Positions 3,479 through 51,067 of a DNA stretch of 64,000 nucleotides are shown here, piece after piece. The notes below the pieces were generated by a model. The model had not been told where the DNA came from, did no database searches, and saw only the letters and a list, made by a program, of their open reading frames with translations. The stretch lies in IMG/VR virus record IMGVR_UViG_3300047476_001402, positions 26,384-90,383 of that record; one strand, written 5' to 3'. Made by a program: the position numbers and the translations under genes. Source of the DNA: a virus. The stretch's first letter is position 1, and each line of letters begins with the position of its first letter.

Positions 3479-3507
3479 TTGACACACAGCGAAAATCACA
3501 CCATACT
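3479..3507 (+). promoter_or_regulatory. sigma70-like promoter
   Basis: TTGACA-17 nt-CATACT, ATG at 3513. Confidence 0.55.
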
Positions 3508-3512
3508 ATACA

Positions 3513-4487
3513 ATGACTTTTCATCAAATTGCACAAAGCATTCGAAACGGTAAAATGACACTTGAACACCAAGGACATTGGGGATGTTCAGACGTAAAAC
3601 AATATGAGAAAGTTAAAACAGATATCTTTGAACGTATTTTAGAAAAATACGATGATGATCTTGAAAAATCAAAGGGTTCATATGATGGCAAATGGTCATC
3701 ACAACCAAATGAAAAAAGGGCACAGAAAGATATTGATAAAGATATGCGCGATTTCTATTCACGCGATCTTGATAGAGATTATAGCATAGAGTTTCGAGGC
3801 GATTTATCACATATTCGTTATGAATATACATGCTTTCATTGCGGAGAGAGAATATTCTTCTATGCTCCTGAACCCGATAAATTGGTAGCTTTTACAAGTT
3901 ATAAAGGATATACAAATGGAGTGCAGAAACCTTGTATTCTCCCTCGTCACGATCCTTATGAAGGTACTATTAAGGTCGATAGTGACATGATATTCACAAA
4001 TTATTTTGGAGATGGTAATGCCCCTCATCTCAGTGCAGACACGCCTAGTGAACTCGAAACAGGGAAACGTGACTGGAGTGAAGAATATTCATTAAATGCT
4101 AGTATTGGTCGTATCCGAATTGCTGATTTTAAATCAAAAATTTTAAATGTTGCATATGGACAGATGGGAAATATGTCTATAGGAGTTTATGTAAATGATA
4201 CTGGAACTAAGATCATTCTCGATAATCCGTGGGATAATGAGATTGAAGGATTTACGAAAATTGGAGATAATATTTCTCTATCAGTGTGGCGATACGAAGC
4301 CACTGATATGACTACATTAAAATTAGACAATTCTAATTATGATGAATTTATCAAGAAAAGTGATGAACGTTATCTTGATATTATTAGAGTACCTGTAAAA
4401 CATGGTATTTGGAAATTTACACATTATTATGATGCGTGTGAAGATTCGAAGCATTATGCGGTTTTTGAGCTTGACATTAAGAAGTAA
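3513..4487 (+). CDS. Hypothetical protein (324 aa, CxxC)
   Basis: Long ORF; no family recognised. Confidence 0.7.
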   Translation: MTFHQIAQSIRNGKMTLEHQGHWGCSDVKQYEKVKTDIFERILEKYDDDLEKSKGSYDGKWSSQPNEKRAQKDIDKDMRDFYSRDLDRDYSIEFRGDLSHIRYEYTCFHCGERIFFYAPEPDKLVAFTSYKGYTNGVQKPCILPRHDPYEGTIKVDSDMIFTNYFGDGNAPHLSADTPSELETGKRDWSEEYSLNASIGRIRIADFKSKILNVAYGQMGNMSIGVYVNDTGTKIILDNPWDNEIEGFTKIGDNISLSVWRYEATDMTTLKLDNSNYDEFIKKSDERYLDIIRVPVKHGIWKFTHYYDACEDSKHYAVFELDIKK

Positions 4488-4509
4488 AAGGGTTAATGTA
4501 AAGGATAAT

Positions 4510-4682
4510 GCGGGGGTAGCTCAGTGGTAGAGCGCATACCGAAAGGTATCCAAAACAAAGGCGATAAAAACATTGAACGAAAGTGGGTAACAAGTTGGCG
4601 GATTGGTCACATCTTCTAAATTTTCGAAATAAGAAGATAACATGTGAGAGGTCGGAGGTTCAATCCCTTCCCCTTCGCACCA
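4510..4682 (+). ncRNA. tRNA-like RNA with about 100-nt structured insertion replacing the anticodon arm
   Basis: 5' GCGGGGG-TA-GCTC-AGTGGTA-GAGC; 3' AGGTC-GGAGG-TTCAATC-CCTTC-CCCTTCGC-A-CCA; upstream TTGACA...TAATGT promoter. Confidence 0.75.
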
Positions 4683-4702
4683 AATTTTAAAAATAAAAAG
4701 AA

Positions 4703-4957
4703 ATGCCAGTTAAAATAAACAGAAATCTTAAAGAAACTGAATGTTCTCTGTACGGCCCTGATGGTTCCTTTATAGGAATCATAGATTCAGAAATTATTCT
4801 GAATGATGTTCGTCTTCAAATTAAAAGACAACAATTAGAAGGATATTACATTATTTTCGAGAATAATAAAATTACCATTCATCTCAATGGTAAATTAAAC
4901 CACTGGCCTAATGGTTTTTTTAGAACTTGGACGGATCAACTTTTCGAATTACTTTGA
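4703..4957 (+). CDS. Hypothetical protein
   Basis: ORF in co-oriented run. Confidence 0.6.
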   Translation: MPVKINRNLKETECSLYGPDGSFIGIIDSEIILNDVRLQIKRQQLEGYYIIFENNKITIHLNGKLNHWPNGFFRTWTDQLFELL

Positions 4958-4958
4958 T

Positions 4959-5360
4959 ATGAAATTAAAAGATAGTATAGCCATTCCTCTCCTTCCTGCA
5001 TTTCCGCCTAATAGAGCGGATAATTTCAACGAAGAGAAGATGGAACAATACGTGAATGCTGTAATCGAATCCGAATTGGAGGAACTTCGAAAAATACGAG
5101 GTGTTATACTAGATAGTGGAATTCGATTTTCTGGCGAATATAGAAGTGCTAGTGAACGAATTAAATTCATTCTAGAAAAATATAAAAGCCTCGAAACAGA
5201 ATTAAATTCTATTAAAGACGGTATTAAACGTAATAGTATGACAACTGTCGTGGACGGTAATGATATGTGTGATTGGGGGTGGACAAATATCGAAGGTTTA
5301 CATGCTAATTTGCGAAGTGGTCGATACGATTATATTATAAATTCCAAAAAAGACTCTTAA
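4959..5360 (+). CDS. Hypothetical protein
   Basis: ORF; ATG 4959 directly follows the upstream stop. Confidence 0.6.
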   Translation: MKLKDSIAIPLLPAFPPNRADNFNEEKMEQYVNAVIESELEELRKIRGVILDSGIRFSGEYRSASERIKFILEKYKSLETELNSIKDGIKRNSMTTVVDGNDMCDWGWTNIEGLHANLRSGRYDYIINSKKDS

Positions 5361-5557
5361 TGAACTGTTTACTATTTTATAATGGAAAAGATCCTGCATT
5401 TTCTATCTGGGATGACAATATGGATGCATGTATGACGTTGGTTCGTGCAATGAAACGTATTGGATGGAAATTCGTATGGACTGTCCACACCTCTACCGGT
5501 TCTTGGCCTTTGCCAAGATATGAGAAAGAATACGAAGAATGGAAGAAATTGGAATAA
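5360..5557 (+). CDS. Hypothetical protein
   Basis: Stop/start coupling with the upstream ORF. Confidence 0.5.
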   Translation: MNCLLFYNGKDPAFSIWDDNMDACMTLVRAMKRIGWKFVWTVHTSTGSWPLPRYEKEYEEWKKLE

Positions 5558-19142: not shown

Positions 19143-19520
19143 TTACGTATTCACAAGATCTTCAGGAATGAATTTCTTATACTGATAAGCAATACCCGTT
19201 CCTGATCCTAGTGTTATACTAGTGATAGGGGCTGTCCATGTATAGCCCGCAGGAAACGAAAATGAATTAAATGCACTAGGAGTTGCAGAATATATGGTTC
19301 CTGTGTGTTGACCATCGCTGTGTTGTGTTCGCATACCTACAGATGCTACTACTGAATTAGTTAAAAAATCTATTCTATAGAATACATAATCTGAGGATGT
19401 CGGTACAAATGTTCCTGCACCAGTCAGAGGTATTTGGCCGTGTCCACCAAATGAGAGTTCCCATGCGAAAAGCTCTCTACGGTCATTATACATAAAACTA
19501 GTACTTGGTTGTAAATTCAT
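19143..19520 (-). CDS. Hypothetical late (probable virion) protein
   Basis: TAAGTA motif just upstream; beta-rich composition. Confidence 0.55.
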   Translation of the reverse strand: MNLQPSTSFMYNDRRELFAWELSFGGHGQIPLTGAGTFVPTSSDYVFYRIDFLTNSVVASVGMRTQHSDGQHTGTIYSATPSAFNSFSFPAGYTWTAPITSITLGSGTGIAYQYKKFIPEDLVNT

Positions 19521-19541
19521 ACTATTACTTATTCATAACGC

Positions 19542-19575
19542 AAAAAAACCCCAAAGAATATTCTTTGGGGTTTTT
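19542..19575. terminator. Bidirectional terminator
   Basis: aaaaaaccccaaagaatattctttggggttttt palindrome. Confidence 0.8.
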
Positions 19576-19591
19576 AATATTATTCCGTATT

Positions 19592-20851
19592 TTAAATAGT
19601 TATAAGTTCTTTAATAGGAGCCTCTTTGTTTCCTATGCTCATGGGTCTGCCAGGGGCTGAACTATCGGATGGAGTTGTCCAAACCTTATCATAAGGTATT
19701 CCTAGAAAATGACCAATGGTTGCATTAAGCATCCCAGGTGTCACTGGATTTTCTTCCACTCTCTCTGCATTTGCAGTCGTTTTACCGATAGGTCTTCCTC
19801 CAAGAGCGAGTCCACCTACAAGCATAGAGAATGCTTGCGGGTGATGGTCCTTACCCTCATTGACATTATATTTAGGAGTTCTTCCGAAATCTGTTGCAAC
19901 AACTACTAAAGTATCTTTTAATAATCCTTCATTAGTTAAATCTTCGAAAAGTGATGCAAGGGCTTTATCAAGTTCTCCGCCGCGATTTGTCATATTGGTT
20001 TCGATATCGTTGTGCATATCCCAGCCTCCTACGGTAACTTCACAATAACGAACACCACTCTTAATGAGTCTTTTTGCAAGGAGTAATCCGCTACCGATCT
20101 GAGTCTTTCCGTATTTATTACGGACATCTTCTGTCTCTTTATTAAGATCGAAAACGTTTAAATCTTCGCTCTTCAAGAGTTTCAATGCTTCGTCATAGAT
20201 AGATGAATATGATGTCACATCACTGTTAGTGATATTTTTCATAAACCCTTTATTTAACGAATCGAGAACTTGGATACGATTATTGAACTGCGTTTCTGCC
20301 CCGAGTATACGACTATAGCGCAAACCCTCATTAGGATTTATAATAGATAAAGGATAAAATTTCTTACTAAAATATCCACCTCCAGGATTATCAGTATCTG
20401 GAGATATCGAGATATAATCTGGAATGGATTCGTGTTGTTTCCCTAAAAGATTATATGATATAGACCCTAATGTTGGATGAACAATAAGACTACTCTTATT
20501 ATAAGAGGTCTTCACTGTATATTTCGACATGGCGTGTGCTCCTGATTTAGATGTCATACTTCTAATAGGAATAAACTTATTTCCATGTTTTGCGAGATTA
20601 GGAAAATAACTAGAAATATAAAAATCACCGGTAGTCTTTATAGCTGATGCATTTCCTTTAATAAGAGGATCATCTTTAGGATCGAGGAAATCTGTATGAG
20701 ATATACCTCCATCCAAGTAAACATAGATTACATGTTTAGCTTTACCTGCTGTCTTGAGTGGTAGTGTGTCACCTAGAGCAGTGAAACTTACTCCTAGTGT
20801 TGTGTATGCTAAGGACTGAACAAATCCTCTTCTTGTAATATCAGTATTCAT
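19592..20851 (-). CDS. DUF1501-family protein with Tat signal
   Basis: ITRRGFV Tat motif, GGISHTDFLDPK, GWDMH, TDFGRTP, GKDHHP. The start at 20851 overlaps the stop of an upstream 56-aa ORF (ATGA). Confidence 0.88.
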   Translation of the reverse strand: MNTDITRRGFVQSLAYTTLGVSFTALGDTLPLKTAGKAKHVIYVYLDGGISHTDFLDPKDDPLIKGNASAIKTTGDFYISSYFPNLAKHGNKFIPIRSMTSKSGAHAMSKYTVKTSYNKSSLIVHPTLGSISYNLLGKQHESIPDYISISPDTDNPGGGYFSKKFYPLSIINPNEGLRYSRILGAETQFNNRIQVLDSLNKGFMKNITNSDVTSYSSIYDEALKLLKSEDLNVFDLNKETEDVRNKYGKTQIGSGLLLAKRLIKSGVRYCEVTVGGWDMHNDIETNMTNRGGELDKALASLFEDLTNEGLLKDTLVVVATDFGRTPKYNVNEGKDHHPQAFSMLVGGLALGGRPIGKTTANAERVEENPVTPGMLNATIGHFLGIPYDKVWTTPSDSSAPGRPMSIGNKEAPIKELITI

Positions 20852-21018
20852 ATTTTTTGTTTTTCTATATCGTTTAACTCTGTACGCCATTTTAATTTTT
20901 TAGCATAAAAGTCTTTATCGTCGTCGGGTAAGTTTATCAAAAGTTTCATGTTATAGATTCTTTCTGCAAGTTTCTTTAATTTATTCTCTTGATCACATTG
21001 TAAAATTAGTAGATCCAT
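20848..21018 (-). CDS. Unannotated 56-aa protein (MDLLILQCDQENKL...)
   Basis: Fills the gap between DUF1549 and DUF1501 genes, abutting one and overlapping the other. Confidence 0.55.
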   Translation of the reverse strand: MDLLILQCDQENKLKKLAERIYNMKLLINLPDDDKDFYAKKLKWRTELNDIEKQKI

Positions 21019-22762: not shown

Positions 22763-23518
22763 TCAGACTTTCTTATTAATAATCACTTTTTTCAATTTTT
22801 TATCGCTTTGAATAAAATAACAGAAAGATTTAGTGGTATTGGGATTTATGAAGATTTTATACATATTAACTCCGTTCGGTTTTATTGGTTCCATGAGCGA
22901 ATCCTTATAATGTAACAACCCAAACGATAAATGCCCACCATATAAGTTAGTATCTAAACCCAGAGAAAATGTTTCAAATCCGTTGCTTATAGCATATTCT
23001 ATACTTTTTAAGATACATGCCGTGCTGCCACCATTCTTCTTAAACTCATCAGAATACCATGCATATGAATAAGATAATTTCTCGTCAAGATTTTTAAGAA
23101 TACTTCCACCACGTATTGATCCAAGCGAATCTCTACCAATAACTAGTAGATATTCGCCTATATTATTTTTTATTCTTTGTACATCCACACGATCAATGCC
23201 GTGTGCGATACTATGTAAGAAATTTTTATATCCAATATACCATTCATCCAACAAGGTATGGGTTAATGGAACAACCTCTAGATTATATTCGTCGAGCCTT
23301 TTTGCAATTTTATTCAAATCACAACGTATTTTACTAGGTTTCTTACTGATCCAACTGATTAAACTATCAGGAACTGTCATCGAAAATGTAACTTTCTCTG
23401 GGTAAGTCCCGGTAATAGCCTTCCTCATTAGTGCAAAATCCAAATTAGGATTTTTATCAAAAAAATCAGGAGTATAAGATTTTATAAAATCATAATTTAT
23501 ATTACCAGATATTTCCAT
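22763..23518 (-). CDS. GNAT-fold (FemAB-related) protein
   Basis: C-terminal IEYAISNGFETFSLG...GLLHYK resembles Fem/Acetyltransf_6 proteins. Confidence 0.5.
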   Translation of the reverse strand: MEISGNINYDFIKSYTPDFFDKNPNLDFALMRKAITGTYPEKVTFSMTVPDSLISWISKKPSKIRCDLNKIAKRLDEYNLEVVPLTHTLLDEWYIGYKNFLHSIAHGIDRVDVQRIKNNIGEYLLVIGRDSLGSIRGGSILKNLDEKLSYSYAWYSDEFKKNGGSTACILKSIEYAISNGFETFSLGLDTNLYGGHLSFGLLHYKDSLMEPIKPNGVNMYKIFINPNTTKSFCYFIQSDKKLKKVIINKKV

Positions 23519-24671: not shown

Positions 24672-25461
24672 TAATTTCTAAATATTTTTTATATTTTCTC
24701 TCTAAACAAAAATTTCCATTATATATATATTTTAATATTTCAACTACTTCGTTTTTACGAAATATTCGTAAAACATATATTGTTTTTTTCTTTACAATTG
24801 TGCCATAGCCAAACATATACTTTTCTTTTAAATCTGTTAAAAAGGATTCTGATGCCGAATATATATTAATCGAAAATTGTGATCCCCCAGATTTAGTTTT
24901 ACCCACATATATGTTACCATCACCATCAACAATTCCTCTCAGGTAATCAGGAATAAATTCTTTTGGAACTTCTACCACAAATTCTTTACCAGTCTTATTT
25001 TTAAAAACGCCCATAGTAGCTATATCTTCAATTATAGCCTTTGAACCAAATTTTAAACTCACTTGTTTAGAGGGGCCAATATTAGTTCTTTTATCAATCC
25101 GCACTCTTTCTGTTATAGGTATTCTAGAATCTAATTGATCCCTTATAAACTCTAAAATCGACCGATCTCTTTCTTGAATATCTACACCTATCCATCTCAC
25201 ACGACCCGTATCTATTACATATCCGTCACATATCAAGAATCCTAGACTATATGCCATATTCGCAGACCATTTTGAAAAATACTGCTCATCATAAGAATAT
25301 TTTAGACGTTTATTTTTTGAATTCCGCTGTATACCGTACTTTCTTATTAGATATGATATACTATGTTCACTTTTACCTAATACCTCTGCGATTTCTTTTT
25401 GTGTTTTTCCTTCAACTACAAATTGTTGAATTATATATTCTTTGAGATTGTCGTAAGCCAT
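24652..25461 (-). CDS. Free-standing LAGLIDADG homing endonuclease with N-terminal HTH
   Basis: YSLGFLICDG and YLRGIVDGDG motifs, LERK; TAAGTA upstream. Confidence 0.85.
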   Translation of the reverse strand: MAYDNLKEYIIQQFVVEGKTQKEIAEVLGKSEHSISYLIRKYGIQRNSKNKRLKYSYDEQYFSKWSANMAYSLGFLICDGYVIDTGRVRWIGVDIQERDRSILEFIRDQLDSRIPITERVRIDKRTNIGPSKQVSLKFGSKAIIEDIATMGVFKNKTGKEFVVEVPKEFIPDYLRGIVDGDGNIYVGKTKSGGSQFSINIYSASESFLTDLKEKYMFGYGTIVKKKTIYVLRIFRKNEVVEILKYIYNGNFCLERKYKKYLEINELYEK

Positions 25462-27054: not shown

Positions 27055-27687
27055 TTATTCGCTGTATTTTTCCCAATCGTCTTTGAATCTGTCTTTTAAT
27101 TTCTGAAAATATTCATTAGTTTTAATCTTACACATCCAAGTATTGCCACAAAAAGCACCATTAGTTTCAGTACCTTTACATATAACGCCTTCCTTTAAAC
27201 CATATACGTTATCTCGGACACTTTGGATAAATTCATCATTAAGATTTCCTGCATATACAACTTTAGGAATCGGAACCACTTCATCAAGTGTTTTTACAAA
27301 TTCCAAGGGTTTAAGAAATTTTCGCTGTTTATGTCCGACCATAATATCAAAAAATACCAGATCGTGTGGTTCATCTTCATGATGTCCTGCAAAAGAATTT
27401 TCCCCCAAGAATTCCCCAAAAACGACAATCTCTCTATAATCACGCAAAGATTTCTCTTTCTTGAAGACATTTTCTAGGGGTTCCTTGTATTTCGAATTGA
27501 AGATTTCTACCATTTCTTTCCAGAATGGAGTAGTCTCATTAATAAGCTGTGTCCTCGTTCCAAAACAATCGAATCCTCTTTTTTGGGTATATTTTGCTCT
27601 GAAATTGCTGCCATCAAGTTTGTCGAAGGCTATACAATTTTGACGGGGAGCCTTGCTACTGTTTATAATGGAAGGGTACTCAATCAT
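27055..27687 (-). CDS. RNA ligase-like nucleotidyltransferase
   Basis: KLDGSN (motif I), VFGEF, FFDI, EGVICK, KIK. Confidence 0.75.
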   Translation of the reverse strand: MIEYPSIINSSKAPRQNCIAFDKLDGSNFRAKYTQKRGFDCFGTRTQLINETTPFWKEMVEIFNSKYKEPLENVFKKEKSLRDYREIVVFGEFLGENSFAGHHEDEPHDLVFFDIMVGHKQRKFLKPLEFVKTLDEVVPIPKVVYAGNLNDEFIQSVRDNVYGLKEGVICKGTETNGAFCGNTWMCKIKTNEYFQKLKDRFKDDWEKYSE

Positions 27688-37333: not shown

Positions 37334-37408
37334 TGGTACCTATACAGAGATTCGAACTCTGAACAAAATATTTTTGAGATATTCTCCTCTACCAATTGGG
37401 ATATAGGC
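37334..37408 (-). tRNA. tRNA-Leu(CAA), short variable loop
   Basis: AATAT-CTCAAAA-ATATT; CCA; positions 8-9 appear missing. Confidence 0.75.
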
Positions 37409-37456
37409 GTATAAAATACTTATTCGAAGGATTTCACGAACGTTCTGAATTTAAAT

Positions 37457-37537
37457 GCCTACCAAGGCTAGGGAATCGAACCACATCTAAATTTATCTCT
37501 CTTCTTTCGGTGGTTATAACACACCTAGCCTTGCGGC
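37457..37537 (-). ncRNA. Structured RNA with long terminal stem and T-loop, no anticodon arm
   Basis: CAAGGCTAGG/CCTAGCCTTG 10-bp stem; GGTTCGATTCC. Confidence 0.5.
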
Positions 37538-37541
37538 GATT

Positions 37542-37619
37542 TGGTACCATTGGTGGGAGTCGAACCCACAGATAACATGTTTCTAAGACATGTGTGTTTA
37601 CCAATTACACCACAACGGC
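37542..37619 (-). tRNA. tRNA-Leu(TAG), short variable loop
   Basis: CATGT-CTTAGAA-ACATG; CCA. Confidence 0.88.
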
Positions 37620-40749: not shown

Positions 40750-40828
40750 TGGTACAGACGAAGGGACTTGAACCCCCATATATCCATTACGGTTTTAACT
40801 CGTTAGAAGCGAGAGCCGATACGCCTGC
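40750..40828 (-). tRNA. Non-canonical tRNA-Arg(TCT) lacking a normal D arm
   Basis: GCAGGCG/CGTCTGT, CTCG-CTTCTAA-CGAG, T arm and CCA; only about 8 nt between acceptor and anticodon stem. Confidence 0.75.
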
Positions 40829-40835
40829 ATTTCAC

Positions 40836-40910
40836 TGGTGCCTCCCTTGGGACTCGAACCCAAAATGCGAAATTCGTAGTTTCGCGTGATATCCATTTCA
40901 CTAAAGAGAC
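40836..40910 (-). tRNA. tRNA-Arg(ACG)
   Basis: CGAAA-CTACGAA-TTTCG; CCA. Confidence 0.88.
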
Positions 40911-45020: not shown

Positions 45021-45127
45021 TGGTGGACTATATGAGATTCGAACTCACTCGGGGTTGCGCACTCCCTTTCCGATTGCATCATCAGAATCCCCTCTGATTA
45101 ATAACCTCGATGTTAATTAGCTAGCCC
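45021..45127 (-). ncRNA. tRNA-like RNA with G3:U70, no D stem and no anticodon (tmRNA-TLD-like)
   Basis: GGGCTAG/ATAGTCC-A-CCA; GTGAG-TTCGAAT-CTCAT; TCGAGGTT/AACCCCGA helix enclosing two hairpins. Confidence 0.7.
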
Positions 45128-45132
45128 ATTTA

Positions 45133-49107: not shown

Positions 49108-49169
49108 TGATGGACACGATGAGACTCGAACTCACAGTTGGAAACGCACTACCATTATGCTACATGCCC
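49108..49169 (-). ncRNA. Anticodon-less tRNA-like RNA with G3:U70 and A73
   Basis: GGGCATG-TA-GCAT-AATGGTA-GTGC-GTTTCCAACT-GTGAG-TTCGAGT-CTCAT-CGTGTCC-A-TCA. Confidence 0.75.
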
Positions 49170-50981: not shown

Positions 50982-51067
50982 TGGTGCCTCTGGTGGGACT
51001 CGAACCCACATAGGAATTTATTCCACAGATTAAGACTCTGTTGGTCGGCCAATTGACCCACAAAGGC
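50982..51067 (-). tRNA. tRNA with CTT (Lys) anticodon and a long variable arm
   Basis: ACAGA-GTCTTAA-TCTGT; V arm GGAAT-AA-ATTCC; A73 CCA. Confidence 0.8.

What the first reader, a model, noticed from the sequence alone, without database searches (positions are those of the whole stretch)
4470..4682. Stand-alone 173-nt tRNA-shaped RNA with a structured insert instead of an anticodon
Seen: canonical D arm, AGGTC linker, T arm, acceptor stem (one extra 3' nt) and encoded CCA, with its own sigma70-like promoter, far from the tRNA array. The insert has hairpins ATACC-GAAA-GGTAT and TCACAT/ATCTTCT...AGAAGAT/ATGTGA with a TTCG-capped tip. It also holds a short frame GCG ATA AAA ACA TTG AAC GAA AGT GGG TAA (4561-4590, AIKTLNESG*), which could be chance. 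It is shorter than typical group I introns, and I could not reconstruct a clean spliced anticodon arm. Unlike tmRNA it has a D stem and no G3:U70. Inference: a new tRNA-scaffolded ncRNA, a miniature tagging RNA, or a protein-spliced tRNA.
Basis: partly seen in the sequence, partly recalled or inferred. Interest (0 to 1): 0.75.

Follow-up and report, generated by a model that had tools for sequence, protein, structure and literature searches.

The report
Twice-interrupted phage arginine tRNA gene
This stand-alone phage RNA gene has the outline of a tRNA and does hold an arginine anticodon arm, but two extra pieces of sequence split it; whether they are cut out of the RNA or the RNA stays a non-reading look-alike is still open.

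Summary
The tRNA-shaped gene at 4510-4682 (+) is real. Rfam's tRNA model scores it 30.4 bits (cut-off 29) only in a local search. Default ARAGORN and the whole-window Rfam scan miss it.

The arm is split by 22 nt at about position 38/39. It is separated from the D arm by 73 nt.

- Removing both pieces in silico gives a tRNA-Arg(UCU) that passes ARAGORN at 115% stringency. Only 7 of the window's 18 tRNAs pass that level.
- No single deletion passes 110%.
- Such an arm arises in 152 of 20,000 shuffles, and never with UCU.
- 24 of 44 related phage loci carry a tRNA-Arg(UCU) near the same marker gene.

Other assemblies of the same phage carry 39 extra nt inside the 73-nt piece. The insert has no homolog anywhere I searched, and its middle is unstructured. 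The 5' part resembles a tRNA-Gly(GCC).

It is not a tmRNA, a group I intron or a YrlA RNA. The most likely reading is a rearranged or interrupted tRNA-Arg gene. Whether it is spliced is unresolved. The scan has noted similar anticodon-disrupted tRNA-shaped RNAs in other phages.

The parts
4471..4476 (+). -35-like hexamer TTGACA
   Evidence: The same hexamer with a 17-nt spacer precedes other tRNA genes of the contig.
4494..4499 (+). -10-like hexamer TAATGT (3 of 6 to consensus), 10 nt before the mature 5' end
   Evidence: The consensus scan does not list it.
4510..4516 (+). Acceptor stem, 5' strand (GCGGGGG)
   Evidence: Rfam alignment; arm scan.
4519..4533 (+). D arm (GCTC / AGTGGTA / GAGC). 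G26 is at 4534.
   Evidence: In one search, contigs of another locus match 4506-4536 with one differing letter (30 of 31). They then read on into a Gly(GCC) anticodon loop.
4535..4607 (+). Insert 1: 73 nt between the D arm and the anticodon stem (position 26/27; boundaries uncertain by 1-2 nt). It holds hairpin H1 (4536-4549, GAAA loop) and an A-rich, unstructured middle. In runs X2 and X3, 39 more nt lie between 4564 and 4565.
4608..4612 (+). Anticodon stem, 5' strand (CACAT)
4613..4619 (+). Anticodon loop CTTCTAA. The anticodon TCT is at 4615-4617 (Arg, reads AGA/AGG).
4620..4641 (+). Insert 2: 22 nt at about position 38/39 (the junction can slide from 36/37 to 40/41). AGAAGAT inside it is complementary to ATCTTCT (4611-4617), which covers the anticodon.
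   Evidence: ARAGORN's intron mode calls a 22-nt intron once insert 1 is removed; pairs 4612-4617 with 4632-4637 have probabilities 0.70-0.83.
4642..4646 (+). Anticodon stem, 3' strand (ATGTG). It is a perfect complement of 4608-4612.
4647..4653 (+). Variable region AGAGGTC (7 nt, two more than the common AGGTC)
4654..4670 (+). T arm (GGAGG / TTCAATC / CCTTC)
4671..4682 (+). Extra C (4671), acceptor 3' strand CCTTCGC (4672-4678; 5 Watson-Crick and 2 G-U pairs), discriminator A (4679) and encoded CCA (4680-4682)

Best explanation
**Shown: the anatomy.**
- The gene is built on a tRNA-Arg(UCU). The acceptor stem, D arm, T arm, the elbow-forming nucleotides and CCA are intact.
- The arginine anticodon arm is also intact, but it is cut off from the D arm by 73 nt (112 nt in another allele) and split by 22 nt at about 38/39.

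**Inferred: the origin.**
- The gene is a product of rearrangement at a tRNA-gene hot spot.
- Its first 27 nt (4510-4536) and the 4 nt before them (4506-4509) are nearly identical to a tRNA-Gly(GCC) gene present in the same samples.
- Hairpin H1 looks like that tRNA's anticodon stem closed by a GAAA tetraloop.
- The rest, from the anticodon arm onward, is Arg-type.

**Inferred: the mechanism.**
- Transcription starts a few nt upstream at a TTGACA-N17-TAATGT promoter.
- No terminator follows, so transcription probably runs on into ORF 4703-4957.
- RNase P and 3' trimming would release a stable 173-nt RNA (212 nt in the long allele) with a normal tRNA elbow and CCA end.
- As transcribed it cannot decode. 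The anticodon is paired with insert 2, and the arm is displaced from the body.

I judge it somewhat more likely than not that the two pieces are not removed. On that view the product is a non-decoding, tRNA-shaped stable RNA, comparable to the small stable RNAs of the T4 tRNA cluster.
For: **tRNA body**
- Rfam tRNA scores 30.4 bits with a 112-nt insertion.
- It is the only long hit of a strict arm scan in 90 kb.

**Anticodon arm**
- With both pieces deleted, 117 of 900 boundary variants are called tRNA-Arg(tct) at ARAGORN -ps110, and 30 of 900 at -ps115. No other anticodon is called at -ps115.
- At those two levels only 8 and 7 of the window's 18 tRNAs pass.
- Single deletions pass in 52 of 814 variants at default, 4 at -ps105, and 0 at -ps110 and -ps115.
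- With insert 1 alone removed, ARAGORN's intron mode itself calls Arg(tct) with a 22-nt intron.
- The in-silico product folds as a cloverleaf by minimum free energy.
- Shuffle control: 152 of 20,000 shuffles give any such arm, and 0 give TCT.

**Locus identity**
- 24 of 44 loci of relatives hold a tRNA-Arg(tct) within 10 kb of the same 562-aa marker gene.
- In 7 of the 8 loci that have a homolog of the downstream 84-aa ORF, that tRNA lies about 0.4-0.5 kb upstream of it.

**Against evolved introns, hence for 'not spliced'**
- A 39-nt indel lies inside insert 1 among assemblies that are otherwise identical over 2 kb.
- The middle of the insert is unstructured (z 0.08).
- No homolog of the insert turned up.
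- The 5' part is Gly(GCC)-like.
- No splicing endonuclease, RtcB or Rnl1 is encoded in the 90-kb fragment.
- A second Arg(tct) candidate lies in the tRNA array at window 40750-40839. ARAGORN calls it only at -ps85.

**Precedent for non-decoding tRNA-derived stable RNAs in T4-type phages**
- T4 rnaC is annotated 'small, stable RNA' and carries a T-arm hairpin.
Against: - The exons are flawless. The anticodon loop keeps U33, A37 and a sense anticodon, which points to selection for decoding or for recognition of the anticodon.
- Insert 2 pairs with the anticodon, as introns of archaeal and eukaryal pre-tRNAs do (recalled).
- Two relatives (L072, L078) keep tRNA-Ile(GAT) genes with 125- and 195-nt inserts at the same 38/39 site. 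Their stems carry compensating changes. Interrupted tRNA genes are therefore maintained in this clade.
- The contig encodes an Rnl2-type RNA ligase.
- Only 34% of the genome is in hand, so a missing enzyme proves nothing.
- The Gly-origin argument rests on 31 nt plus 10 loose letters in contigs that I could not fetch.
- Two G-U pairs in an acceptor stem are not unusual here: 4 of the 18 tRNAs have two or more.
Confidence: 0.45

Rival explanations
1. It is a working tRNA-Arg(UCU) gene with two true introns. A protein endonuclease that measures from the tRNA body would cut out the 22-nt piece at about 38/39 and the 73/112-nt piece at 26/27. A phage RNA ligase would then join the exons. This would be the same unsolved route used by the 'enigmatic' introns of other large phages.
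For: - The anticodon arm is perfect and the product is high-scoring.
- The anticodon pairs with insert 2.
- tRNA-Ile(GAT) genes in relatives are interrupted at the same site and show compensating stem changes.
- An Rnl2-type ligase gene lies at window 27055-27687.
- Lak megaphages are reported to carry conserved tRNA introns of unknown mechanism (PMC6784885; passages read).
- The gene has its own promoter-like site.
Against: - I know of no bacterial or phage tRNA with an insert at 26/27 (recalled; not searched in print).
- By hand I could not draw a 3-4-3 bulge-helix-bulge motif at either insert.
- No tRNA_int_endo or RtcB gene is in the fragment.
- Insert 1 shows a 39-nt indel polymorphism.
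- Insert 1 starts with what looks like another tRNA's anticodon stem.
- The D loop lacks A20, an ArgRS identity element in E. coli (recalled).
Confidence: 0.28
2. It is a dedicated tRNA mimic or decoy that is never spliced. The intact elbow, acceptor end and CCA recruit tRNA-handling proteins. The displayed Arg-type loops (CTTCTAA, and TTTCGAA at the hairpin tip) would bait or block an enzyme that recognises arginine anticodon loops, for example a colicin-D-like anticodon nuclease. Alternatively the RNA could serve the phage's RNA-binding-protein system encoded 10 kb upstream.
For: - The 22-nt piece sits at 38/39, the site where colicin D cuts tRNA-Arg (PMC1669751, introduction passage).
- The same contig holds other tRNA-derived RNAs:
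  - a YrlA-like permuted tRNA (Rfam RF02553, 35.6 bits, E 8e-6);
  - a second module in T-arm, hairpin, D-arm order.
- A 562-aa phrog_850 'RNA-binding protein' is encoded upstream.
- Earlier notes of this scan describe anticodon-disrupted tRNA-shaped RNAs in other phages. These are leads, not evidence.
Against: - The insert is not conserved, and the indel polymorphism argues against a tuned payload.
- The same 38/39 site is used in tRNA-Ile genes, which colicin D does not target.
- The YrlA model gives only 10.7 bits on the candidate.
- No TROVE domain is found in the contig.
- No nuclease target is known for the unknown host.
Confidence: 0.2
3. It is a miniature tmRNA-like tagging RNA that uses the frame 4561-4590.
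For: - The frame starts with GCG (Ala) and ends in TAA.
- The RNA has a tRNA-like end with CCA.
Against: - The pair is G3-C70, not G3-U70, and a full D stem is present.
- ARAGORN -m finds nothing even at -ps80.
- No tmRNA match appears at the locus at E up to 10.
- The 39-nt allele falls inside the frame and, read by eye, puts a stop codon in it.
Confidence: 0.02
4. It is a tRNA with a self-splicing group I intron.
For: - Bacterial tRNA genes can carry group I introns in the anticodon loop (recalled).
- A 128-nt insert in an unrelated metagenomic tRNA (L053) gives a weak Intron_gpI match (20.2 bits, E 0.005).
Against: - No Intron_gpI match appears at the locus at E up to 10.
- The pieces are 22 nt and 73/112 nt, far below the roughly 200 nt of the smallest known group I introns (recalled).
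- The middle of the insert is unstructured.
Confidence: 0.02

Closest known systems
'Enigmatic' introns in tRNA genes of Lak megaphages (Devoto et al. 2019, PMC6784885; passages read)
   Same: Both are genes of large phages with a tRNA outline, sequence inserted in the anticodon region, no Rfam class for the insert and no known splicing route.
   Different: - Here there are two pieces. One is at 26/27, outside the anticodon loop, and it varies in length within the population.
- Lak introns are reported as identical across cohorts.
- The phage here is a distant T4-like freshwater phage, not a Lak phage.
- The Lak intron sequences are in supplements that I could not open.
Small stable RNAs of the phage T4 tRNA cluster (rnaC 'species 1' and rnaD 'species 2'; NC_000866 annotation)
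   Same: Both are T4-type phage RNAs of 119-173 nt and unknown function. rnaC keeps a T-arm hairpin (CCGGG / TTCGAAT / CCCGG) and an acceptor-like closing stem around extra hairpins.
   Different: - I saw no sequence similarity.
- T4 rnaC lacks a D arm, an encoded CCA and a recognisable anticodon arm.
- The T4 RNAs lie inside the tRNA cluster, whereas this gene stands alone.
YrlA, bacterial and phage Y RNA-like RNAs (Rfam RF02553; Chen et al. 2014, PMC4201824; passages read)
   Same: - Both are tRNA-derived RNAs with intact D and T arms and no working anticodon.
- M. smegmatis YrlA is cut by RNase P and receives CCA.
- A YrlA-like RNA lies 7.8 kb upstream in the same contig.
   Different: - YrlA has the T arm before the D arm, a sealed acceptor stem, and ends that form the Ro-binding helix with a GNCGAAN0-1G motif.
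- The candidate has normal arm order, open ends and no such motif.
- The YrlA model scores it 10.7 bits.
Archaeal and eukaryal pre-tRNAs with protein-spliced introns, including multi-intron tRNAs (PMC4090602, search listing only; the rest recalled)
   Same: There is an insert at or next to the canonical 37/38 site that pairs with the anticodon, and more than one insert in a single tRNA gene.
   Different: - The host is presumably bacterial.
- I found no canonical bulge-helix-bulge motif by hand.
- No splicing endonuclease gene is in the fragment.
Engineered 'tRNA scaffold' for recombinant RNA
   Same: Foreign sequence is held in the anticodon region of an otherwise intact tRNA. This arrangement is expected to give correct end processing and stability.
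   Different: That design is synthetic. Here the 'payload' still contains a complete anticodon arm.

Membership tests
tRNA (Rfam RF00005) | Cloverleaf with acceptor, D and T arms that scores above the gathering cut-off | tested here: met
   30.4 bits against a cut-off of 29, E 1.7e-4, in a 451-nt local search. The whole-window scan and default ARAGORN miss it.
tRNA (Rfam RF00005) | Contiguous 17-nt anticodon arm joined directly to the D arm | tested here: not met
   The arm is present but split by 22 nt and separated from G26 by 73 nt.
tRNA-Arg(UCU) | Anticodon loop with U33, UCU and a purine at 37, closed by a 5-bp stem | tested here: met
   CACAT / CTTCTAA / ATGTG. 152 of 20,000 shuffles give any such arm, and 0 give TCT. 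ARAGORN calls Arg(tct) up to -ps115 after both deletions.
tRNA-Arg(UCU) | A20 in the D loop (ArgRS identity element in E. coli; recalled) | tested here: not met
   The D loop is AGTGGTA, with T after GG. Whether the unknown host's ArgRS needs A20 cannot be tested here.
tmRNA | G3-U70 pair, no D stem, and detection by ARAGORN -m or Rfam RF00023 | tested here: not met
   The pair is G3-C70 and the D stem has 4 bp. ARAGORN -m finds nothing at default or -ps80. No tmRNA match appears at E up to 10.
tmRNA | Conserved tag reading frame | tested here: not met
   The 39-nt allele lies inside the proposed frame. The in-frame stop was read by eye and not computed.
Group I intron in a tRNA | Match to Intron_gpI (RF00028) and a size of roughly 200 nt or more | tested here: not met
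   No match at E up to 10. The pieces are 22 nt and 73/112 nt.
Protein-spliced (bulge-helix-bulge) tRNA intron | Insert at or near 37/38 that pairs with the anticodon | tested here: met
   The junction can be placed from 36/37 to 40/41. ATCTTCT pairs with AGAAGAT.
Protein-spliced (bulge-helix-bulge) tRNA intron | Two 3-nt bulges around a 4-bp helix at the splice sites | tested here: inconclusive
   By hand only. For insert 2 the best drawing has bulges of 2-3 and 5 nt around a 5-bp helix. I found none for insert 1. No program for this motif was available.
Protein-spliced (bulge-helix-bulge) tRNA intron | Splicing endonuclease and ligase available | tested here: inconclusive
   No PF01974, RtcB or Rnl1 (the Rnl1 control rang in no genome). 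An Rnl2-type ligase is present. Only 34% of the genome is held, and the host is unknown.
YrlA (RF02553) | T arm before D arm, sealed acceptor stem and a Ro-binding terminal helix | tested here: not met
   Arm order is normal and the ends are open. The model gives 10.7 bits over 17 nt only. Inspection finds no G-N-CGAA motif.
Lak-type 'enigmatic' phage tRNA introns | Phage tRNA gene with an unclassified insert in the anticodon loop that is conserved among relatives | tested here: inconclusive
   An insert in the loop: yes (insert 2). Conservation: no relative carrying this gene was found. Insert 1 resembles the L078 intron only weakly, with 2.8-4.5% of shuffles scoring as high.

The most novel reading that the evidence does not exclude
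A bacteriophage tRNA-Arg(UCU) that must lose two inserts to work. One sits at 26/27, a position not known for bacterial or phage tRNAs. The other sits at 38/39, the same site as in interrupted tRNA-Ile genes of related phages and the site where colicin D cuts tRNA-Arg. If true, this phage clade would have a protein-based tRNA cut-and-rejoin route, for example a body-measuring nuclease plus an Rnl2-type ligase. The interrupted gene could then also escape, or bait, anticodon nucleases and homing endonucleases that target the intact gene or tRNA.
Probability: 0.22. Interest if true: 0.85.

Novelty: new variant of a known kind. Interest (0 to 1): 0.55.

Why it matters
Inserts in phage tRNA genes have been in print since 2019 with no mechanism. 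Small stable tRNA-like RNAs of T4 have, as far as I recall, had no assigned function for decades.

This locus is a compact test case. It has a clear anticodon arm, two separable inserts, two natural alleles (173 and 212 nt) and a candidate ligase in the same contig. A single RNA experiment would therefore show whether such phage genes are spliced.

- If they are spliced, that would be tRNA splicing of a kind not described for bacteria or their viruses.
- If they are not, the locus documents how tRNA genes in phages are rebuilt from fragments yet remain expressed as tRNA-shaped RNAs.

It also shows that default tRNA finders miss these genes.

Tried and rejected
**1. One intron in the anticodon loop.** ARAGORN -ps80 calls Val(aac) with a 97-nt intron. 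I rejected this.
- At -ps85 ARAGORN reports 98 'genes' in 90 kb, against 18 at default.
- No single deletion passes -ps110.

**2. A hidden second 5' half of the Arg tRNA at 4580-4607.** ARAGORN makes this call once insert 2 is removed. It is not significant: 373 of 3,000 shuffled middles also give a call.

**3. Motif AAACATTGAA..CGAA..GTGG, shared with the upstream RNA region.** All 8 hits in viral contigs lie in what look like coding sequences, so I treat it as chance.

**4. Searches for homologs of the RNA or its insert. All were empty or gave only adjacent-tRNA pairs.**
- blastn against the phage collection.
- Exact and gapped patterns in viral contigs, metagenome contigs and genome contigs.
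- BLAST of the 119-nt insert on 10 related phage records: only 14-26-nt matches, E 0.007-0.75.
- blastn on 44 loci of relatives: only D-arm or T-arm pieces.

**5. Synteny through the upstream 324-aa ORF.**
- It has 14 distant homologs besides itself, the best at 35% identity.
- None of the 12 related viral loci has an insert-bearing tRNA beside it.

**6. Similarity of insert 1 to the introns of L072 and L078.** It is weak for L078 (2.8-4.5% of shuffles score as high) and absent for L072. The L072 and L078 introns are not significantly alike either.

**7. Imperfect acceptor stem as a sign of chimerism.** I dropped this. 4 of the 18 tRNAs here have two or more G-U pairs.

**8. RNA evidence.** No RNA holder was listed among the sequencing runs. 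The laid runs are DNA contigs only.

**9. Flanking proteins.** None points to RNA processing.

**10. PDB sequence search with the 562-aa protein.** No match. I did not fold it.

**11. Promoter.** The consensus scan does not list the site.

**12. Not seen.** Supplementary tables of PMC6784885, which hold the Lak intron sequences, were closed. They may bear on whether the insert resembles Lak introns.
Full report
**Setting.**
- The window is the last 64 kb of a 90,383-bp IMG/VR virus record. CheckV rates the record 34% complete, and its G+C is 34.6%.
- The record codes for T4-type replication and nucleotide-metabolism proteins. These include RNR subunits, a gp44-type clamp loader about 36% identical to those of cyanomyoviruses, NAMPT and a NadR-like protein.
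- The phage occurs in freshwater metagenomes.
- The feature lies in a 215-nt gap between + strand ORFs 3513-4487 and 4703-4957. It is about 32 kb from the minus-strand tRNA array.

- Default tools do not see the gene. ARAGORN finds 18 tRNAs, none here, also in intron and tmRNA modes. Rfam at gathering threshold on the whole window lists 14 tRNAs, none here.
- In a 451-nt local search, Rfam's tRNA model matches 4510-4679 at 30.4 bits (cut-off 29, E 1.7e-4). A block of 112 nt stands where 15 model positions should be.
- My own arm-by-arm scan asked for a 7-bp acceptor, U8, a 4-bp D stem with GG in the loop, and a 5-bp T stem with a TTCRA loop. It finds this as the only hit longer than 95 nt in the contig, beside 8 ordinary tRNAs.
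- The nucleotides that build the tRNA elbow are all in place (read; the roles of these positions are recalled): U8, A14, G15 with C48, G18 G19, the C13-G22 pair with G46, and G53-C61 with T54 T55 C56 A58.

**The promoter claim holds only in part.**
- TTGACA (4471-4476) is followed after 17 nt by TAATGT, which matches only 3 of 6 in the -10. The consensus scan does not list the site.
- That scan finds no excess of promoter-like sites: 15 found against 15.2 ± 3.2 expected.
- The same TTGACA-N17-TAnnnT layout stands before tRNA-Trp, tRNA-Met and other genes of this contig.
- No terminator-like site follows the CCA, and the next ORF starts 20 nt later. Read-through into that ORF is therefore likely (inference).

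**The 'structured insert' claim also holds only in part.**
- The whole RNA folds no better than shuffles (z -0.97; 36 of 200 shuffles fold as well).
- One search gives the parts:

| Part | z-score | Shuffles folding as well |
|---|---|---|
| Insert, 114 nt | -1.2 | 12% |
| H1 (ATACC-GAAA-GGTAT) | -7.0 | 0 of 500 |
| H2, the long hairpin | -2.1 | 4% |
| Middle, 59 nt | 0.08 | 49% |

- The insert is A-rich: 47 A in 114 nt.

- Relatives pointed me to it. The upstream 324-aa ORF has only distant homologs.
It matches DUF7788 and phrog_850 'RNA-binding protein'.
- That protein has 2,080 homologs at E ≤ 1e-10, up to 83% identical. This gave 44 loci of related phages.
- In 8 of these loci a homolog of the downstream 84-aa ORF is present. 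In 7 of those 8, a tRNA-Arg(TCT) lies about 0.4-0.5 kb upstream of it. In the eighth (L106) only the 3' part of that tRNA remains, next to an HNH-type ORF.
- In all, 24 of the 44 loci hold a tRNA-Arg(tct).
- The loop of those tRNAs, CTTCTAA, also occurs in the candidate at 4613-4619. There it is flanked by CACAT (4608-4612) and, 22 nt further on, its exact complement ATGTG (4642-4646). ATGTG ends 2 nt before AGGTC.

**Tests of this reading.**
1. *Deleting both pieces.* I removed 4535-4607 and the 22 nt in 900 boundary variants.

   | ARAGORN level | Calls of 900 | Arg(tct) among them | Window's own 18 tRNAs passing |
   |---|---|---|---|
   | default | 679 | 256 | 18 |
   | -ps105 | 365 | 187 | 14 |
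   | -ps110 | 118 | 117 | 8 |
   | -ps115 | 30 | 30 | 7 |
   | -ps120 | 0 | 0 | 3 |

2. *Single deletions* (814 variants). 52 pass at default with mixed anticodons, 4 at -ps105, and 0 at -ps110 and -ps115.
3. *Insert 1 removed alone.* ARAGORN's intron mode calls Arg(tct) with a 22-nt intron.
4. *Folding.* The in-silico product folds as a cloverleaf by minimum free energy, -23.0 kcal/mol.
5. *Shuffle control.* Among 20,000 dinucleotide shuffles of 4535-4648, 152 contain any arm that meets all of these conditions:
   - a perfect 5-bp stem;
   - a loop with Y32, U33 and R37;
   - an insert of at most 60 nt;
   - a 3' strand that ends within 2 nt of AGGTC.

   None of the 152 has TCT. I chose TCT after seeing the relatives, so 0.8% is the fair figure.

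**Anatomy that follows.** The gene is a tRNA-Arg(UCU) outline with two interruptions.
- Insert 1 is 73 nt at 26/27.
- Insert 2 is 22 nt, and its junction can slide from 36/37 to 40/41. The two possible products have loop CTTCTAC or CTTCTAA. The second is the loop of the Arg(tct) genes in L052/L060 and L082.
- Insert 2 contains AGAAGAT, complementary to ATCTTCT over the anticodon. In the primary transcript the anticodon is therefore paired.
- That feature fits an anticodon-intron helix. It fits equally a fold-back copy made during DNA repair (inference).

**Population data.**
- Contigs from four runs were laid on 3500-5500.
- X1 matches the window exactly and may be its source.
- X2 (another study) and X3 (the same sample as X1) show no other differences over the 2 kb. 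Both carry 39 extra nt between 4564 and 4565, inside insert 1.
- Two alleles, 173 and 212 nt, therefore exist.
I could not compute on these letters.
- Other short contigs in three runs match only 4506-4536, with one differing letter (30 of 31). In X1 the read continues into a TTGCCAA-type loop, which is a tRNA-Gly(GCC) gene from another locus or organism.
- Among 417 tRNAs in all held loci, the best match to the candidate's first 25 nt is also a Gly(gcc). That set is biased by my search patterns.
- H1 (ACC-GAAA-GGT core) lines up with the anticodon stem of that Gly tRNA, with its loop cut down to a tetraloop (inference).
- The 27-nt 5' stretch occurs in none of the 185,579 species genomes.

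**Is the insert conserved?** I found no homolog.
- blastn against the phage collection.
- Patterns in viral contigs, metagenome contigs and genome contigs.
- BLAST on 10 related phage records and on the 44 loci.

**Do relatives keep interrupted tRNA genes?** Yes.
- L072 and L078 carry tRNA-Ile(GAT) with 125- and 195-nt inserts at about 38/39.
- Neither locus shows a group I match at gathering threshold, and a local E-value search of the L078 gene gave none either.
- Their acceptor and anticodon stems differ by compensating changes, so the exons are under selection.
- Insert 1 resembles the L078 intron only weakly (GAAAGGT and ATCCAAnACAA-AGGCG blocks; 2.8-4.5% of shuffles score as high). It does not resemble the L072 intron.

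**Other insert-bearing or nested tRNA genes seen on the way.**
- L008, L012 and L048: a tRNA inside a tRNA.
- L053: a 128-nt insert with a weak group I match.
- L043, L041, L042 and L074.
- Source calls: 21, 33, 65, 66, 72, 73 and 91.

**Enzymes.**
- The 90-kb fragment has no TROVE, RtcB, Rnl1 or tRNA-intron endonuclease match. The Rnl1 control rang in no genome.
- It has an Rnl2-type RNA ligase (PF09414, 57.3 bits) at window 27055-27687.

**Context.**
- The same contig holds a permuted tRNA in the order T arm, sealed acceptor, D arm. It matches Rfam YrlA at 35.6 bits, below the cut-off of 69.
- It also holds a second such module and further odd tRNA-like genes.

**Comparison with known families.**
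- *tmRNA:* not met (G3-C70, a D stem, no program or model match, and a frame broken in one allele).
- *Group I intron:* not met (no match; too small).
- *YrlA:* not met (normal arm order; 10.7 bits).
- *Archaeal-type intron:* the position and the anticodon pairing fit insert 2. I could not draw a canonical bulge-helix-bulge motif, and no endonuclease is in hand.
- *Closest in kind:* the unexplained tRNA introns of Lak megaphages (PMC6784885, passages) and the small stable RNAs of the T4 tRNA cluster.
- Colicin D cuts tRNA-Arg between 38 and 39 (PMC1669751, passage). That is the site of insert 2. The same site in tRNA-Ile genes weakens this link.

**Verdict.**
- The anatomy, a tRNA-Arg(UCU) outline interrupted twice, is well supported.
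- The fate of the RNA is not settled. My odds are:

| Reading | Probability |
|---|---|
| Rearranged or interrupted gene whose product stays unspliced and cannot decode | 0.45 |
| Doubly spliced working tRNA-Arg | 0.28 |
| Dedicated mimic or decoy | 0.20 |
| tmRNA-like or group I | 0.02 each |

- Similar anticodon-disrupted tRNA-shaped RNAs were noted by this scan in other phages. I did not check those notes.

Noticed in passing
L027:1987-2092 (G000 22986-23091, 3.3 kb before the window start): A circularly permuted tRNA. Its parts run in the order ATTCT, AGGTC, T arm, acceptor stem sealed by GCAA, D arm, AGAAT. It matches Rfam YrlA (RF02553) at 35.6 bits, E 8e-6, below the cut-off of 69. Its T and D arms are nearly identical to those of the candidate.
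   Followed up: partly
L027:3885-3960 (G000 about 24884-24960): A second module in T-arm, hairpin, D-arm order. It has a Leu-type D arm (GGCGGAATGGTAGACGC) and a TGTGGA/TCCACA stem.
   Followed up: no
L062:4303-5991 (G000 19302-20990): A 562-aa protein that matches DUF7788 (46 bits) and phrog_850 'RNA-binding protein' (E 1e-32). It has 2,080 homologs at E ≤ 1e-10, some also carrying DUF2828. It shows no TROVE match and no PDB sequence match. It lies 1.7 kb before the arrays of tRNA-like RNAs.
   Followed up: partly
window 45033-45128 (-): An RNA of about 96 nt. It has a canonical T arm (GTGAG / TTCGAAT / CTCAT), an acceptor pairing in 6 of 7 positions (5 Watson-Crick and one G-U) and an encoded CCA, but no normal D arm. 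Neither ARAGORN nor Rfam calls it.
   Followed up: no
window 49111-49169 (-): A 59-nt match to Rfam tRNA (42.1 bits) that default ARAGORN misses. At -ps85 ARAGORN gives a four-letter anticodon. It appears to be a tRNA with a reduced anticodon arm.
   Followed up: no
window 40750-40839 (-), 50982-51067 (-), 37334-37619 (-): Unusual tRNAs in the array. There is a 90-nt Arg(tct) candidate with a poor D arm, called only at -ps85. There is an 86-nt tRNA-Lys(ctt) with a long variable arm. There are two 'Leu' tRNAs of 75 and 78 nt without the long variable arm expected of bacterial tRNA-Leu (recalled).
   Followed up: no
L008:1133-1279 and L012:5355-5501; L048:40-191: A complete tRNA with CCA nested in the anticodon loop of another tRNA gene. 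In L048 the nested tRNA-Val is flanked by 13-nt inverted repeats, and part of the host anticodon arm is missing.
   Followed up: no
L072:216-416 and L078:821-1093: tRNA-Ile(GAT) genes of related phages with 125- and 195-nt inserts at about 38/39. No group I match was found. Their stems differ by compensating changes.
   Followed up: partly
L053:489-684 (-): A tRNA (45.9 bits) with a G+C-rich 128-nt insert in the anticodon loop. The insert gives a weak partial match to the group I intron model (20.2 bits, E 0.005).
   Followed up: partly
L082:12061-12431, L085:18036-18406, L106:20770-21140: An HNH-endonuclease-like ORF ends just before the tRNA-Arg(TCT) gene. In L106 the 5' half of that tRNA is gone and the break lies in the anticodon loop. 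This suggests a homing-endonuclease hot spot at this tRNA gene.
   Followed up: no
L074:19535-19663; L042:105-215 (-); L043:59-155 (-); L041:124-229 (-): More tRNA-shaped genes in large phages with hairpins or extra sequence in or beside the anticodon arm. L043 shares the candidate's D arm exactly and carries a TCGGT / GTTATAA / ACCGA arm held away from the body by 12-14 nt on each side.
   Followed up: no
window 27055-27687 (-): A 210-aa Rnl2-type RNA ligase (PF09414, 57.3 bits).
   Followed up: no
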